Virus record (IMG/VR): IMGVR_UViG_3300027777_000091
Coordinates: 1 to 32,281 of that record
DNA: 32,281 nt
Source: a virus
Lineage: Duplodnaviria > Caudoviricetes
Reading direction: 5' to 3' (one strand)
Position 1 is the first letter of the stretch; every line of letters starts with the position of its first letter. The notes below the pieces were generated by a model that saw only the letters and a program-made list of their open reading frames with translations, did no database searches and had not been told where the DNA came from. The translations under genes and the position numbers were made by a program. Shown one piece after another: positions 1 to 22,403 of the stretch.

Positions 1-461
1 AGGTAGTACGCTACATCAGGGCCAGCATCAGAGGCTTGAATCGCTTGCGCCATCACGGTCGTGATTTTAAGACTTGGGTTGTACGCGACCTGTTCAAAGT
101 CATCGTACTTGGTCCGAGCCTCTTCTTCACGCTCGTGATACGCCTCAAGAATCTCCGTCTGTTGGCGCTGCTGCTCACGCTGCTCAATTAATTTGATTGC
201 TTTGGCCTCTGCGTAAGCATCAACCGAATCAAACTGATCTACAGGTGGAACATCAACGGCAACGTGCGGCGGTGCTTGACGCTCACGCTCCCACTTTCGC
301 TGTTCTCTTGCGAGACGTTTTTGAATCGCGGCATCAAGTTCCTCTTGCGAGAATGTCTTGGGCGAAACTTCCGGCGTATCTACTACAGGTTCTGGGGCTG
401 CCGTGGCTTCCAGTTCCGGCGCGGGCGCTACTTCCGCTTCAATCGCTACTTCTTCGGTCAT
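1..461 (-). CDS. Capsid scaffolding protein, N-terminal part (runs off the left edge; absent from the ORF track)
   Basis: Manual translation from ATG at 461: MTEEVAIEAEVAPAPELEATAAPEPVVDTPEVSPKTFSQEELDAAIQKRLAREQRKWERERQ...DDFEQVAYNPSLKITTVMAQAIQASDAGPDVAYY, open to position 1. Acidic Pro/Ala-rich N-terminus and the KTFSQEELDAAI..RLARE coiled-coil motif are typical of phage scaffolds. Confidence 0.8.
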   Translation of the reverse strand, partial: MTEEVAIEAEVAPAPELEATAAPEPVVDTPEVSPKTFSQEELDAAIQKRLAREQRKWERERQAPPHVAVDVPPVDQFDSVDAYAEAKAIKLIEQREQQRQQTEILEAYHEREEEARTKYDDFEQVAYNPSLKITTVMAQAIQASDAGPDVAYY

Positions 462-18529: not shown

Positions 18530-19555
18530 ATGAAAATACCTGACGCTCAGTATAGCATCCCAGAACTTGTAGACCAATACCACGCAAGCAAACCTGAGAA
18601 GCCTAGAGCGCATCTTGGCGCAAGTCAGTTGGGTCACGCTTGCGACCGTTGGTTATGGCTGTCGTTCCGATGGGCCGTGGCATCCAAGTTTGAAGGTCGC
18701 GTGTTACGGATGTTTCGTCGCGGCCAGAACGAAGAAGCCACGATCAAGGATGATCTCCAAGCCATAGGCATTGAGTTCAAGCCAGGGACGGCGCAAGAGC
18801 GTGTTGACTTTGGTTGTCACATCAGCGGGAGCATAGATGACATCGCACTATCTGGAGTGCCGGGAGCGCCACAGAAGAAACACGTTTGTGAGTACAAGAC
18901 ACACAACAAAAAATCGTTTGAACAAGTTGAAGACAAGGGTGTGGAGCGTGCAAAGTTTGATCACTTTGTGCAAATGCAGTCTTATATGCACGGCACTGGT
19001 ATTGACAGGGCGTTGTATGTGGCTGTCTGCAAAGATGACGACAGAATTTATACCGAGCGGGTGGAGTACGACAAAGGCGTTGCCGAAAACGCAATAGCCC
19101 GTGGTAAGCGGATTGCATTGTCTGACCGGATGCCTGAGCCTTTAAGCGCAGACCCCAGCTGGTATCAATGCAAGTGGTGTGCGGCGCATGAGTTCTGCCA
19201 CGGCGACCGCCTGACCAAAGAGGTCAACTGCCGCACCTGCGCCCATAGCACTGCGACCGAGGATTCCAAGTGGATCTGTGAGCGCCATGCTGGTAACGAG
19301 ATTCCGGTGGAATGGCAGCGTGAGGGTTGCAACGCCCATGTTTTGCACCCTGATATGGTCCCGTGGCAGCGCAAGGAGGCCGGTGACGAGTGGCAGACGA
19401 TCTACGTCATCAAAGGCAAGGAAGTGGTTAACGGTGAGCCAAGTGATAGTGTGTACGGGTCTAAGGAACTGGTTGCCAACGCGCAAGCCTGTGCTGAGTC
19501 TGACGAAAGGATGATTGAGTTTCGGAAGATGTTTGATGCGCGGGTAGTTGGATGA
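18530..19555 (+). CDS. Cas4-like PD-(D/E)XK exonuclease
   Basis: LGASQLGHAC, GSIDD, CEYKT, QMQSYM and CKWC....FC (Cys 1+3 Fe-S pattern); AAGGAG RBS. Confidence 0.85.
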   Translation: MKIPDAQYSIPELVDQYHASKPEKPRAHLGASQLGHACDRWLWLSFRWAVASKFEGRVLRMFRRGQNEEATIKDDLQAIGIEFKPGTAQERVDFGCHISGSIDDIALSGVPGAPQKKHVCEYKTHNKKSFEQVEDKGVERAKFDHFVQMQSYMHGTGIDRALYVAVCKDDDRIYTERVEYDKGVAENAIARGKRIALSDRMPEPLSADPSWYQCKWCAAHEFCHGDRLTKEVNCRTCAHSTATEDSKWICERHAGNEIPVEWQREGCNAHVLHPDMVPWQRKEAGDEWQTIYVIKGKEVVNGEPSDSVYGSKELVANAQACAESDERMIEFRKMFDARVVG

Positions 19556-21153
19556 TCCTTCGTGACTACCAGCAGCGGGCCATTACCGACTTGTACAACT
19601 GGTTTCTTGCCGGCTACTTGGGAAACCCTTGTTTGGTGTTGCCCACAGGCTCAGGCAAGAGCCACATCGTTGCCGCTATCTGCGAAGACGCGCTGACCAA
19701 GTGGCCTGAGACTCGCATCTTGATGTTGACCCACGTTAAAGAACTGATTGAGCAAAACGCCGAGAAGATGTACGTACATTGGCCGGACGCCCCGCTTGGT
19801 ATTTATAGCGCGGGCATAGGGCGGCGTGAGTTACACCAGCCGATCACGTTTGCTGGCATTCAGTCTGTGCGGGACAAGGCGGCGCAGATTGACCACGTTG
19901 ATCTGGTGATCATTGACGAATGCCACCTAGTAAACCATAAGGACACGGGCGGCTATCGTGATCTGCTGCGCCAGCTACATCGCATCAACCCAAACCTGCG
20001 TGTCATTGGCCTGACTGCTACGCCGTACCGGCTAGGCCACGGCATGATCACCGATGAGCCGGCAATCTTCAACGCACTAATTGAACCAGTAACGATTGAA
20101 GAGTTGATCTTCAAAAAGCACCTTGCTCCGCTGCGCTCCAAGCTAACGTCAACGGCGTTAGATACCACTGGCGTTGCCAAGCGTGGTGGTGAGTTTGTTG
20201 AAGGCGAGCTACAGAAGGCGGTCAACACCAAAGACCAAAACGTGCGCGTGGTCAGCGAGGTGATTGCGTTGGCAGAAGATCGGCAGCATTGGTTGTTCTT
20301 TTGTACCGGCGTATCCCACGCCCAGAACGTCTGCGAGATCCTAAACTATTGGGGTGTGCCGTCCAAGTGTGTGACCGGCGAAACGCCCAAGAAAGAACGC
20401 GAGAAGATTATTGAGGAGTTCAAGACCGGAAAGATCAAGGCGTTGACCAACGCCAACGTGCTGACCACAGGGTTTGACTATCCAGACATTGACCTGATTG
20501 CAATGCTGCGGCCAACGATGTCCCCTGGGTTGTACATTCAGATGGCCGGTCGAGGGATGCGTCCTAAAAGCCACACCGATCATTGCTTGGTGCTGGACTT
20601 TGCCAAGGTGGTTGCAACGCATGGCCCGATCACCAACGTGCAACCACCAAAGAAAGGCGGTTCTGGCGACGGTACTGCCCCGGTCAAGGTATGCGACAAC
20701 TGCAACGAGATCTGTGCGCTGGCGGTGCGCGTATGCCCCGCTTGCGGAACGGATTTCCCCGCTGTTGAGCCTAAGAAACTAAGGCTACAGTATGACGACA
20801 TTATGGGCGACAGCGGGACCGAGATGGCGGTCACCGACTGGTCTTGGCGGCGGCACGTTAGTCAGGCCAGCGGCAAGCTAATGGTGTCAATCACCTACTA
20901 CGGTGGCTTGAGTGATACGCCCATCACCGAATACCTGCCAATACTGCATTCTGGTTTTGCCGGTGAGAAGGCGTTGGGTACGCTGTATTACATCGCTAAC
21001 AAAGCCCAAACAGTACTAAATCAGATCAACGAAGTCGCCGAGTCAGACGCGGTTGATTATGTTGTGGCGCAGATGAACCAAGGGTTTCCCCCAGTATCCA
21101 TTGAGTACAAGCGCGATGGAAAATTCTTTAGGGTTGTGAGCAGGAAGTGGTGA
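19552..21153 (+). CDS. Superfamily 2 DExH helicase (RadD/YejH-like) with Zn finger
   Basis: LRDYQ, PTGSGKS, IIDECH, GLTATPYR, LTTGFD, QMAGRGMR and CDNC..CPAC. Confidence 0.92.
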   Translation: MILRDYQQRAITDLYNWFLAGYLGNPCLVLPTGSGKSHIVAAICEDALTKWPETRILMLTHVKELIEQNAEKMYVHWPDAPLGIYSAGIGRRELHQPITFAGIQSVRDKAAQIDHVDLVIIDECHLVNHKDTGGYRDLLRQLHRINPNLRVIGLTATPYRLGHGMITDEPAIFNALIEPVTIEELIFKKHLAPLRSKLTSTALDTTGVAKRGGEFVEGELQKAVNTKDQNVRVVSEVIALAEDRQHWLFFCTGVSHAQNVCEILNYWGVPSKCVTGETPKKEREKIIEEFKTGKIKALTNANVLTTGFDYPDIDLIAMLRPTMSPGLYIQMAGRGMRPKSHTDHCLVLDFAKVVATHGPITNVQPPKKGGSGDGTAPVKVCDNCNEICALAVRVCPACGTDFPAVEPKKLRLQYDDIMGDSGTEMAVTDWSWRRHVSQASGKLMVSITYYGGLSDTPITEYLPILHSGFAGEKALGTLYYIANKAQTVLNQINEVAESDAVDYVVAQMNQGFPPVSIEYKRDGKFFRVVSRKW

Positions 21154-21833
21154 TGATTCATTATCATGGAACGCCTATTACCCCCAACCGAGCTATTGAA
21201 ACGATGGGAGGCAAGCATTTTTGCGTCAGTTACGCCAGACCAGACCAGTTGGAGCGTTGCCTTCGGTTGGGACAATCGTTGATGTTAGACAACGGGGCGT
21301 TTAGCGCCAAGACTCGTGGTTTGCAGTTTGACCGCGATGGGTTTTACAAATGGGTTGAGCCAATCTTGCGTCATCCAAATTGGGGCGTTGTGCCGGATGT
21401 CATTGACGGTACGGTTGAGCAGCAGCGCGAGATGGTGGCATCTTGGCCGTTTCGCAAAGAGTTTGGGATCCCCGTCTGGCATCTTGGTCTTTCGATTGAT
21501 TACCTTCTTGAACTTTGCGACCAATGGGGTCGCGTCTGTTTTGGGTCAGCTGGTGAGTATTGGCAGATCGGAACGCAGAAATGGACCGCCAGAATGGACG
21601 AGGCGTTCAACCAACTTGCCATTACTTTTGGGTCTGTGCCTTGGGTTCACGGCATGAGGATGTTGGGACAATCTGAAGGCCCATGGCCGTTAGCAAGCGC
21701 AGACTCTACCAATGTTGCAGTCAACCATTCTGGTTATGTGCAATGCGCTGGTTGTATGGCAAAAAGAATAGATGCAACCAACCCGCCAACCTTGCAATGG
21801 AAAGTAAAACCAACTCAAAAGACTTTATTATGA
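21153..21833 (+). CDS. tRNA-guanine-transglycosylase (TGT)/DpdA-like TIM-barrel protein
   Basis: Ordered motifs LMLDNGAFS, VPDVIDG, PVWH, WVHGMRMLG and SADST match the DSG.F / D / H..G / S.DS pattern of TGT/DpdA; TGATG-coupled to the helicase. Confidence 0.65.
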   Translation: MIHYHGTPITPNRAIETMGGKHFCVSYARPDQLERCLRLGQSLMLDNGAFSAKTRGLQFDRDGFYKWVEPILRHPNWGVVPDVIDGTVEQQREMVASWPFRKEFGIPVWHLGLSIDYLLELCDQWGRVCFGSAGEYWQIGTQKWTARMDEAFNQLAITFGSVPWVHGMRMLGQSEGPWPLASADSTNVAVNHSGYVQCAGCMAKRIDATNPPTLQWKVKPTQKTLL

Positions 21834-22090
21834 ACATTTACGAAACTTCTTTCTATTGCAAATGCCCTGTGAACAAAATTAGAATTTTGTATGAATTAAA
21901 GATAGAAACAAAGCAAATTATTGCAGTTGAGGAGTTGCTTAAACATATTGACCACTGGTATCAGGATGGGTTTCACGAGCTAATTGCAGATCATCTTGCT
22001 GAAAGTTTTGGCGGGATTCAAACATTAAAAGCCGATCATCATTCTGTAAAAATAACCACAACCAGAAAAGGAAATGAGCGTACCAACTGA
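21830..22090 (+). CDS. QueF-like tunnel-fold protein (86 aa)
   Basis: Start at ATG 21830 (ATGA overlap); FYCKCPVN...IAVEELLKHID...GFHELIADHL reproduces the CP, E and HE landmarks of QueF/QueF-L. Confidence 0.6.
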   Translation: MNIYETSFYCKCPVNKIRILYELKIETKQIIAVEELLKHIDHWYQDGFHELIADHLAESFGGIQTLKADHHSVKITTTRKGNERTN

Positions 22091-22403
22091 ACACGAAGAA
22101 CAACGCGAACTGGTGCGATGGTTTCGCCAGACGTATCCAGACGTTCGCATCTTCGCTATCCCAAACGGGGAAAAGCGCAGCATTAGCGTGGCGGCAAGGC
22201 TCAAAACCGAAGGCGTTAGCGCCGGGGTTCCTGACTTGTTTGTGCCGTCGTGGGGTTTGTGGATTGAGATGAAACGCCAAAAAGGAGGTGTGTTAAGACC
22301 GGAACAAAAAGATTGGATTGATTACCTACAGGGCTGCGGGCATCGGGTCATTGTGGGGTATGGGTTTGACGATGCCAAAACCAAAATTGGAGAGCAGAAA
22401 TGA
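22074..22403 (+). CDS. VRR-NUC domain nuclease (Holliday junction resolvase-like)
   Basis: EHEEQ, FAIPNG, GVSAGVPDL, IEMKRQKGG.L...QKDW. Confidence 0.88.
   Translation: MSVPTEHEEQRELVRWFRQTYPDVRIFAIPNGEKRSISVAARLKTEGVSAGVPDLFVPSWGLWIEMKRQKGGVLRPEQKDWIDYLQGCGHRVIVGYGFDDAKTKIGEQK

What the first reader, a model, noticed from the sequence alone, without database searches (positions are those of the whole stretch)
21153..22090. Minimal two-gene TGT/DpdA-like + QueF-like cassette: candidate stripped-down 7-deazaguanine DNA-modification system
Seen: two translationally coupled genes (TGATG and ATGA overlaps) wedged between the helicase and VRR-NUC genes, the second markedly AT-rich. Gene 1 (226 aa) has LDNGAFS / PDVIDG / WH / HGMRMLG / SADST in TGT order. 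Gene 2 (86 aa) reads CKCPVN...IAVEELLKHID...GFHELIADHL. Established: phage DpdA transglycosylases swap guanine in DNA for 7-deazaguanines, which blocks restriction enzymes, and QueF/QueF-L T-fold enzymes act on the preQ0 nitrile through a Cys thioimide. Characterised clusters often also carry folE, queD, queE and queC. Inference: none of those four is in the window, and the unseen part should be capsid genes, so this phage would scavenge host preQ0. The transglycosylase is short and has DNG instead of DSG, so it may be an uncharacterised subfamily that installs a different base.
Basis: partly seen in the sequence, partly recalled or inferred. Interest (0 to 1): 0.85.

Follow-up and report, generated by a model that had tools for sequence, protein, structure and literature searches.

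The report
Phage DpdA with miniature QueF-like partner
This phage carries a member of a known enzyme family that likely swaps guanine in its own DNA for a host-made 7-deazaguanine, next to an unannotated 86-residue gene that is predicted to fold like archaeosine synthase, lacks that enzyme's catalytic aspartate, almost always sits beside the swapping enzyme, and likely prepares the base that gets inserted.

Summary
Observation confirmed. Gene 1 (21153-21833) is a phage DpdA of the known 'DpdA-only' group (Salmonella phage 7-11, Pantoea phage MED16). It keeps every DpdA catalytic residue. The DNG motif and short length are family traits, and both tested relatives carry trace dADG, so it is not a new subfamily. 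Gene 2 (21830-22090) is the new part. It belongs to a family with no Pfam match (549 clusters at 50% identity) and is predicted as a minimal T-fold whose best match is archaeal QueF-Like (5JYX). It keeps the thioimide Cys and the base-binding Glu/His residues, but lacks the catalytic Asp (0 of 150) and the NADPH motif. 83 of 86 viral loci with gene 2 have gene 1 within 470 bp, whereas gene 1 often lacks gene 2. Its other partners and fusions (YhhQ transporter, Cys-less QueD-like, nucleoside deoxyribosyltransferase-like) handle free bases. Best reading, untested: gene 2 works on free host preQ0, likely hydrating it to ADG for DpdA (0.4). Rivals are dG+ synthesis or covalent trapping. I found no paper on gene 2. 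This scan noted the same pair twice before on other genomes.

The parts
21153..21833 (+). Gene 1: phage DpdA (7-deazaguanine DNA transglycosylase) of the 7-11/MED16/SEN1 'DpdA-only' group, 226 aa
   Evidence: phrog_887 E 1.9e-48; tblastn to SEN1/SW9 46%, MED16 37%, 7-11 gp32 33%; model pLDDT 88.5 matches Cap10, arcTGT, TGT and DpdA 7UI4 at Z 12.8-14.7
21288..21302 (+). D46-N-G-A-F50: general acid/base Asp and base-stacking Phe (Salmonella DpdA D95/F99 equivalent, inferred from motif order)
   Evidence: D46 in 110 of 110 family rows, N47 in 107 of 110; DpdA residue roles from PMC10164549
21396..21398 (+). D82 (PDVIDG): Watson-Crick-edge Asp (DpdA D130 equivalent, inferred)
   Evidence: 110 of 110; invariant also with Dp-1 DpdA1
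21480..21482 (+). H110 (WH): base-edge His (DpdA H181 equivalent, inferred)
   Evidence: 110 of 110
21702..21704 (+). D184 (SADST): nucleophile Asp (DpdA D256 equivalent, inferred)
   Evidence: 110 of 110
21830..22090 (+). Gene 2: minimal QueF-Like-type T-fold protein (core about 80 aa), unannotated family, AT-rich
   Evidence: phrog_37496; model pLDDT 96.2, beta-beta-alpha-alpha-beta-beta; Foldseek top ten all QueF-Like, best E 5e-4, TM 0.79; VIA Z 11.6, rmsd 2.9, 85 aligned
21863..21865 (+). Cys12, equivalent of the thioimide-forming Cys21 of QueF-L and Cys55 of QueF
   Evidence: 149 of 150 diverse representatives, 111 of 111; model 1..86 aligns to 5JYX 10..105, an offset of 9; hhalign pairs it with the QueF CP motif, weak score
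21884..21886 (+). Ile19: position of the catalytic Asp (Cys+7) of QueF and QueF-L, here never acidic
   Evidence: Ile/Val/Met in 150 of 150; Asp or Glu in 0 of 111
21926..21931 (+). Val33-Glu34, equivalent of QueF Val77-Glu78 (preQ0 N2/N9 contacts); the rest of the NADPH motif is absent
   Evidence: E34 in 147 of 150, motif in 0 of 150; residue roles from PMC13740343
21971..21979 (+). Phe48-His49-Glu50, equivalent of QueF Phe95-His96-Glu97 (T-fold Glu binding N1/N2)
   Evidence: E50 150 of 150, H49 140 of 150
22037..22042 (+). His70-His71: family-specific; His70 is the candidate substitute acid/base or metal ligand (inferred)
   Evidence: H70 148 of 150, H71 99 of 150
19552..21153 (+). Upstream flank: superfamily 2 DNA helicase (not part of the module)
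   Evidence: flanks differ among relatives
22074..22403 (+). Downstream flank: VRR-NUC nuclease (not part of the module)
   Evidence: PF08774 E 1.3e-7

Best explanation
Gene 1 is a DpdA-family protein with a full transglycosylase active site that likely exchanges a small share of guanines in the phage DNA for a host-derived 7-deazaguanine, and gene 2 is an optional partner, predicted to be a minimal QueF-Like T-fold, that likely captures free preQ0 on Cys12 and likely hydrates it to 7-amido-7-deazaguanine (ADG) for gene 1 to insert. Shown here: family membership and active-site conservation of gene 1; the linkage of gene 2 to gene 1, its gain and loss as a single gene, and its partners; loss of the Asp and the NADPH motif. 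Predicted: both folds. From papers: dADG in two relatives that lack gene 2. Inferred: that gene 2 binds preQ0 (about 0.8), acts on the free base (about 0.65), and releases the amide, with His70 or His49 or a bound metal doing the job of the lost Asp. In this reading gene 2 raises the supply of a base that this DpdA group otherwise gets only in traces, and does not create a new base.
For: Gene 1 keeps D46, D82, H110 and D184 in 110 of 110 rows, matching the DpdA residues whose mutation abolishes exchange (PMC10164549). The two tested members carry dADG, not dPreQ0: 7-11 50 against <6 per 10^6 nt, MED16 354 against 3. CAjan in E. coli has 70,628 dPreQ0 and <6 dADG, so general host or spontaneous hydration does not explain this. 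Gene 2 keeps the preQ0 pocket of QueF (C55, V77, E78, F95, H96, E97 equivalents) and has no NADPH motif, so reduction is excluded. Its core is slightly acidic (median net charge -3, positive in 4 of 111), which fits a free base better than DNA. Its recurrent neighbour is the preQ0/preQ1 transporter Vut_1/YhhQ (36 of 86 loci). Single ORFs fuse it to Vut_1 (P0359), QueD-like domains (P0257, P0266, P0295 by Pfam; P0281 by motif only) and a nucleoside deoxyribosyltransferase-like domain (P0376), and none of 150 is fused to DpdA. DpdAs 221 of 223 identical occur with and without gene 2, a clean 233-bp indel, and no active-site column tracks gene 2, so DpdA specificity need not change. One of the two gene 2 copies with no DpdA in the fetched flanks (L099, 1.4 kb upstream only) has lost the Cys.
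Against: No chemistry was tested. The Asp missing here is essential in QueF: D197N, D197A and D197H lose all activity, and it is shared with QueF-L, so thioimide formation itself is uncertain. dADG forms in 7-11 and MED16, where no gene 2 was found (a search of limited sensitivity), so gene 2 is not needed for it and the amide source there stays unexplained. DpdA plus YhhQ without gene 2 is the commonest layout (63 of 80 nearest loci), which suggests this DpdA can use what YhhQ imports unchanged. The two tested phages form their own long-branched clade apart from this gene 1. Some fusions of gene 2 are to unrelated upstream ORFs (P0298, P0300, P0363, P0385), so fusions can be accidental. The closest fold, QueF-L, makes an amidine on nucleic acid and its adduct with free preQ0 does not turn over.
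Confidence: 0.4

Rival explanations
1. Gene 2 is a true QueF-L analogue: gene 1 inserts preQ0 and gene 2 then adds ammonia to the nitrile on the DNA, giving dG+ (archaeosine). It would be the phage counterpart of the third G+ synthase, beside Gat-QueC and ArcS.
For: QueF-Like is the best fold match in both searches (Z 11.6 against 9.8 FolE and 9.2 QueF). No NADPH motif. QueF-L acts after base insertion and needs only NH4+, which also fits identical DpdAs with and without gene 2. Phage nt-1 DpdA2 plus ArcS gives dG+.
Against: Catalytic Asp absent; acidic core; partners are supply-side genes; relatives without gene 2 hold dADG and almost no dPreQ0 for it to act on.
Confidence: 0.2
2. Gene 2 is a non-catalytic or very slow trap. 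It binds preQ0 (perhaps covalently), keeps it from host QueF and TGT, and holds a pool for DpdA; the inserted base is the same as without gene 2.
For: Pocket kept but essential Asp lost. The QueF-L adduct with free preQ0 is stable. Gene 2 is dispensable and mobile.
Against: A stable covalent trap would withhold the base from DpdA. Cys12 and His70 are nearly invariant and N2, Y4 and R79 are strongly kept, more than binding alone would need.
Confidence: 0.2
3. Gene 2 works on another intermediate or product: hydrolysis of preQ0 to the acid CDG, or chemistry on CDG, possibly together with the Cys-less QueD-like protein it is sometimes fused to, giving dCDG, dDG or an unknown base.
For: QueD-like partners lack the CxxxHGH cysteine in 6 of 6 inspected, as does the proposed decarboxylase DpdL. 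dCDG and dDG exist in viruses. phiST DpdA3 also has DNGA.
Against: Most gene 2 loci have no QueD-like gene (1 of 86 with a two-sequence profile). The family profile matches DpdA1 of Dp-1 (E 1e-14) and not phiST DpdA3 (E 0.24).
Confidence: 0.12
4. The pair does not mainly modify phage DNA. It acts on tRNA, or interferes with deazaguanylation-based defence (type IV CBASS Cap9/Cap10, QatABCD) by draining or mimicking the 7-amido-7-deazaguanine mark.
For: Cap10 is the top fold match of gene 1 (E 8e-6; Z 14.7) and also keeps a TGT-like catalytic Asp. DNA modification in relatives is trace and gave little restriction protection.
Against: Cap10 is within 1 Z of arcTGT, at 10% identity, so the rank is a tie. 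Relatives do carry modified DNA. The genes sit in replication or early regions with base-supply genes.
Confidence: 0.08

Closest known systems
Phage 'DpdA-only' group (group 3 of Hutinet 2019; DpdA/TGT_1 cluster of the MED16 paper): Salmonella phages 7-11, SEN1, SPN3UB, BTP1, Pantoea phage MED16
   Same: Sequence family (33-46% identity), length, DNGAFS and SADS motifs, no preQ0 pathway, occasional YhhQ.
   Different: No gene 2 was found in the two tested members. No row in Hutinet Supplementary Data 1 (part 1 of 2 read) or Cui DS1 (all 92 rows) has DpdA with QueF or QueF-L and no upstream pathway.
QueF-Like archaeosine synthase of Crenarchaeota (Pyrobaculum calidifontis, PDB 5JYX, 5K0P)
   Same: Predicted single T-fold, Cys at the same place, base-binding Glu/His, no NADPH motif.
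   Different: About 80 against 109 residues, about 20% identity, catalytic Asp replaced by Ile/Val, conserved His70, acidic core, viral, tied to a DNA transglycosylase. Cui 2023 found no phage QueF that aligned with QueF-L.
QueF nitrile reductase (Bacillus subtilis 4F8B; phage QueFs of Dp-1, phiSM, VH7D)
   Same: T-fold, CP, VE and FHE motifs.
   Different: No E(S/L)K(S/A)hK motif and no Asp62 equivalent; phage QueFs come with folE, queD, queE and queC.
DpdC of bacterial Dpd systems
   Same: Gives the product proposed here, the 7-amide, from the nitrile.
   Different: Unrelated family (DUF328), acts on preQ0 already in DNA.
Cap10 of type IV CBASS (PDB 9NTN)
   Same: Stripped-down TGT barrel that binds 7-amido-7-deazaguanine; top fold match of gene 1.
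   Different: Host defence protein acting on a modified protein, 325 aa, 10% identity; no CD-NTase or Cap9 among the recurrent neighbours.

Membership tests
Phage DpdA (gene 1) | TGT-type barrel | tested here: met
   Predicted model matches Cap10, arcTGT, TGT and DpdA 7UI4 at Z 12.8-14.7; one unrelated barrel (PdxJ, 13.0) scores in the same range
Phage DpdA (gene 1) | Three catalytic Asp, base-edge His, stacking Phe | tested here: met
   D46, D82, H110, D184 in 110 of 110; F50 is Phe, Tyr or Trp; equivalence by motif order, not by superposed coordinates
Phage DpdA (gene 1) | Sequence homology to DpdAs of phages with measured 7-deazaguanine DNA | tested here: met
   7-11 E 4e-35, MED16 E 8e-34, Dp-1 DpdA1 E 1e-14 by profile
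Phage DpdA (gene 1) | Inserts a 7-deazaguanine into DNA | not testable with these tools
   No direct assay of this group seen in the papers read; only dADG in virion DNA
DpdA3 subfamily (gene 1) | Sequence similarity to phiST CGPG_00065 | tested here: not met
   Profile E 0.24-0.3, only the DNGA motif aligns, one reference tested; Cui DS1 lists SE131 (99.6% identical to 7-11 gp32) as DpdA3 on a 17% hit
QueF nitrile reductase (gene 2) | T-fold with Cys55, Glu78, His96, Glu97 | tested here: met
QueF nitrile reductase (gene 2) | NADPH motif E(S/L)K(S/A)hK(L/Y)(Y/F/W) | tested here: not met
   0 of 111 and 0 of 150
QueF nitrile reductase (gene 2) | Catalytic Asp at Cys+7 | tested here: not met
   0 of 111 and 0 of 150
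QueF-Like amidinotransferase (gene 2) | Single T-fold, thioimide Cys, no NADPH site | tested here: met
QueF-Like amidinotransferase (gene 2) | General acid/base Asp shared with QueF | tested here: not met
   Ile/Val/Met at Cys+7; the Asp is stated in PMC5485725
QueF-Like amidinotransferase (gene 2) | Basic nucleic-acid-binding surface (recalled from the structure paper, which is not held) | tested here: inconclusive
   Net charge only: median -3; no surface calculation was possible
QueF-Like amidinotransferase (gene 2) | Homodecamer; converts nucleic-acid-bound preQ0 to G+ with NH4+ | not tested
   No oligomer prediction run; the activity needs experiment
GTP cyclohydrolase I / FolE (gene 2) | Cys-His-Cys zinc site (recalled) | tested here: inconclusive
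   Second fold match (Z 9.8); profile comparison not significant; the positions expected for the His and second Cys hold Asn/Asp and Gly

The most novel reading that the evidence does not exclude
Gene 2 founds a widespread viral family of minimal T-fold enzymes that have replaced the QueF/QueF-L catalytic aspartate and carry out a reaction new to this fold (nitrile hydration to ADG, amidination of DNA, or formation of an undescribed base). Together with a transporter, a Cys-less QueD-like protein and a deoxyribosyltransferase-like protein it forms a plug-in salvage kit around a small DpdA, so phages with the two-gene cassette carry a guanine modification different in kind or far higher in level than the trace dADG of 7-11 and MED16.
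Probability: 0.4. Interest if true: 0.8.

Novelty: new variant of a known kind. Interest (0 to 1): 0.6.

Why it matters
The largest published group of deazaguanine phages encodes DpdA alone, and how its members end up with dADG was left open in print (PMC6884629, PMC8306585). This work gives that group a recurrent, unannotated partner with a testable active site, found in three cultured phages (RHph_X2_30, Mae-JY30, Epa33) whose DNA can be analysed at once. If catalytic, it would be the first phage relative of QueF-Like (Cui 2023 found none) and a T-fold enzyme working without the aspartate held to be essential. A two-gene, roughly 940-bp system would also be a compact tool for writing a modified guanine into DNA. 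The limits: gene 1 and host scavenging are already known, and protection from restriction is not shown for this group.

Tried and rejected
Sequence searches of both proteins and their profiles against PDB sequences gave nothing meaningful; only fold searches placed them. Pfam, NCBIfam and PADLOC do not cover either gene. The ESM Atlas gave QueF at 0.87 for gene 2, a lead only. Profile comparisons of gene 2 with single QueF, FolE and DpdL sequences were not significant. The longer upstream starts (21147 for gene 1, 21683 for gene 2) were rejected because relatives begin at the MIHYHG and MNxY positions. 'DNG marks a new subfamily' was rejected. Mutual exclusion of gene 2 and YhhQ, suggested by 1 of 80 nearest loci, was rejected: 36 of 86 gene 2 loci have both. 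Columns of gene 1 associated with gene 2 lie outside the active-site motifs and follow clades. The first DpdA1-versus-DpdA3 test was circular because Dp-1 was in the profile and was redone without it. A predicted gene 1-gene 2 complex gave no answer (score 0.00, mark 0.32). Prokaryote genomes could not be scanned with the gene 2 alignments, so they were surveyed from gene 1 only. The QueF-L structure paper is not held, so its residue list beyond Cys21 and the Asp was not read. The BREX paper passages held nothing on this pair.
Full report
Observation. The two ORFs, overlaps, motifs, flanks and GC drop are as described. The window is a whole linear virus record, about 89% complete, with a P22-like portal, terminase, primase-polymerase and recombination genes. 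A complete relative, G001 (35,906 bp, terminal repeats; 80.6% identity over 5.8 kb that includes the pair), also has no FolE, QueC, QueD or Vut_1 match, with control genomes ringing. These searches start from a loose first look and could miss very divergent copies. QueE was checked only among 42 window ORFs.

Gene 1 is a known kind. It matches phrog_887 (E 1.9e-48), 7,916 of 8,000 scored protein candidates and 107 of 50,697 phage records. These include SEN1, SPN3UB, BTP1, HK106, SfI, PEAT2 and Athena1, all listed as DpdA-only by Hutinet 2019, and MED16 gp38. It aligns with 7-11 gp32 at 33%. Its model (pLDDT 88.5) matches Cap10, TGTs and DpdA. D46, D82, H110 and D184 are present in 110 of 110 dereplicated family rows and correspond by motif order to Salmonella DpdA D95, D130, H181 and D256. 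DNG is the family norm (107 of 110) and is shared by 7-11 and MED16. Those phages carry dADG at 50 and 354 per 10^6 nt, with little or no dPreQ0. The authors left the source of the amide open, and MED16 DNA was cut by the restriction enzymes tested that lack Dam sensitivity. The subfamily label is unsettled: Cui 2023 lists the 7-11-like SE131 protein as DpdA3 on a 17% hit, but a profile of 182 family rows finds Dp-1 DpdA1 (E 1e-14) and not phiST DpdA3 (E 0.24; one reference each).

Gene 2 is an undescribed family. A profile finds 441 proteins among 610 candidates and 549 clusters at 50% identity, 317 below 1e-10 (best 150 inspected). The model from 111 sequences is confident (pLDDT 96.2). The top ten Foldseek rows are all QueF-Like (best E 5e-4, TM 0.79). 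VIA gives QueF-Like Z 11.6, FolE 9.8, QueF 9.2, then other T-folds. Across the 150 representatives C12 is kept in 149, E34 in 147, H49 in 140, E50 in 150 and H70 in 148; the Cys+7 position is Ile, Val or Met in all 150, and none has the NADPH motif. These sets are the best-scoring hits, so conservation is somewhat inflated. By the residue table of PMC13740343 the preQ0 pocket is kept and the essential Asp is lost. Gene 2 therefore works like, but is not a member of, QueF or QueF-L.

Linkage. From gene 2: 83 of 86 viral loci (one search kept the best 80 of 212) have gene 1 within 470 bp, 67 within 120 bp, 60 upstream and 23 downstream. After grouping gene 2 at 80% identity the count is 41 of 43. 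Of the three exceptions one is at a contig end and one has lost the Cys. From gene 1: gene 2 is present in 8 of the 80 nearest viral loci (best 80 of 131; seven are near-copies of this window), Vut_1/YhhQ in 64, neither in 9; in prokaryote assemblies (best 80 of 163) gene 2 in 9 and Vut_1 in 30. Three cultured phages have the pair adjacent: RHph_X2_30, Mae-JY30 and Epa33. On a FastTree of 111 gene 1 rows (fragments under 185 aa, absences with under 700 bp flank, and copies over 90% identical with the same label were dropped) gene 2 needs 18 gains or losses, 12 forced by well-supported branches, against 37 for shuffles. L054 and L059 have DpdAs 221 of 223 identical and differ by a 233-bp indel that is gene 2. 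So gene 2 depends on gene 1, not the reverse.

Other partners point to base supply. Vut_1 lies in 36 of 86 gene 2 loci. A deoxyribosyltransferase-like gene sits between the two in L098 and L134, and a QueD-like gene in L097. Single ORFs fuse gene 2 to Vut_1, to QueD-like domains in both orders, and to the deoxyribosyltransferase-like domain; none of 150 is fused to DpdA. Four other long ORFs join it to unrelated sequence, so fusion evidence is moderate. The six QueD-like partners inspected lack the catalytic cysteine.

Mechanism. Most likely gene 1 exchanges guanine in phage DNA after replication for a host 7-deazaguanine (about 0.85). Gene 2 likely binds free preQ0 and uses Cys12; with no hydride source and an acidic core, water is the simplest second nucleophile, giving ADG, the base seen in this group (0.4 overall). 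Amidination on DNA (0.2), a non-catalytic trap (0.2), CDG-type chemistry (0.12) and a non-DNA role (0.08) remain open. The main results against the best reading are the missing Asp, dADG in phages where no gene 2 was found, and the frequency of DpdA plus YhhQ alone.

Literature seen. PMC6884629: main text parts 1-4 of 7, supplementary table part 1 of 2, and a supplement search. PMC10516641: parts 1, 3, 4, 5 of 7, sheet DS1 whole, and two supplement searches. PMC5485725: parts 1-2 of 5. Passages only: PMC8306585, PMC10164549, PMC12839542, PMC13740343, bioRxiv 10.1101/2025.04.06.647259 (abstract in 84). Seven full-text searches showed no paper on a small T-fold partner of phage DpdA; most hits were seen as listings only. 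Subscription journals and bioRxiv supplements were not searchable and could hold such a report. Two earlier notes of this scan describe the same pair on other genomes; they are not independent evidence.

Verdict. A real two-gene module: a known DpdA type plus an optional, undescribed minimal QueF-Like partner. New variant of a known kind, interest 0.6.

Noticed in passing
L087:3678-3938, L085:4723-4977, L082:3512-3757: A second small (81-86 aa) unannotated family lies next to this DpdA or its cassette in three unrelated cultured phages (Pam5, DMCA, RHph_X2_30); unrelated to gene 2, no Pfam match for the Pam5 copy. A possible further module member.
   Followed up: no
L003:5690-6064 (gap of the same size in L004): Near-identical relatives have a gene of about 124 aa inserted between gene 1 and gene 2, resembling a phage outer-membrane beta-barrel (Atlas 0.95, Phage_OMP on 49% of that cluster).
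   Followed up: partly
L085:3705-4001, L097:5245-5649, P0257, P0266, P0281, P0295: Short QueD-like proteins beside DpdA or fused to gene 2 keep the HGH/HSH motif but lack the catalytic cysteine, and do not match the DpdL motif either.
   Followed up: partly
L098:5243-5644, L134:5246-5626, P0376, P0384: A nucleoside 2-deoxyribosyltransferase-like gene lies between gene 2 and gene 1 or is fused to gene 2; it could free the modified base from a nucleotide.
   Followed up: partly
L188-L225 (Solirubrobacterales assemblies): Many actinobacterial assemblies carry Vut_1 directly upstream of this DpdA on large contigs, without gene 2, near methyltransferase-like genes; possibly an integrative element, not a phage.
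   Followed up: no
L017:1614-2429 and others among L001-L080: A PAPS-reductase-like (PP-loop) gene occurs within the fetched flanks in 18 of the 80 nearest loci, often close to the DpdA gene.
   Followed up: no
L099:1459-1698: A gene 2 copy that has lost the Cys and His49 sits between small and large terminase-like genes with no DpdA in the fetched flanks.
   Followed up: partly
window 21693-22090: The GC drop begins in the last 140 bp of gene 1 (GC3 0.32 against 0.55), suggesting that gene 2 arrived by recombination inside the 3' end of gene 1.
   Followed up: no
L170:30787-31491: The 7-11/SE131 DpdA is filed as DpdA (2019) and as DpdA3 (2023, on 17% identity); the profile test here puts the group nearer DpdA1.
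   Followed up: partly
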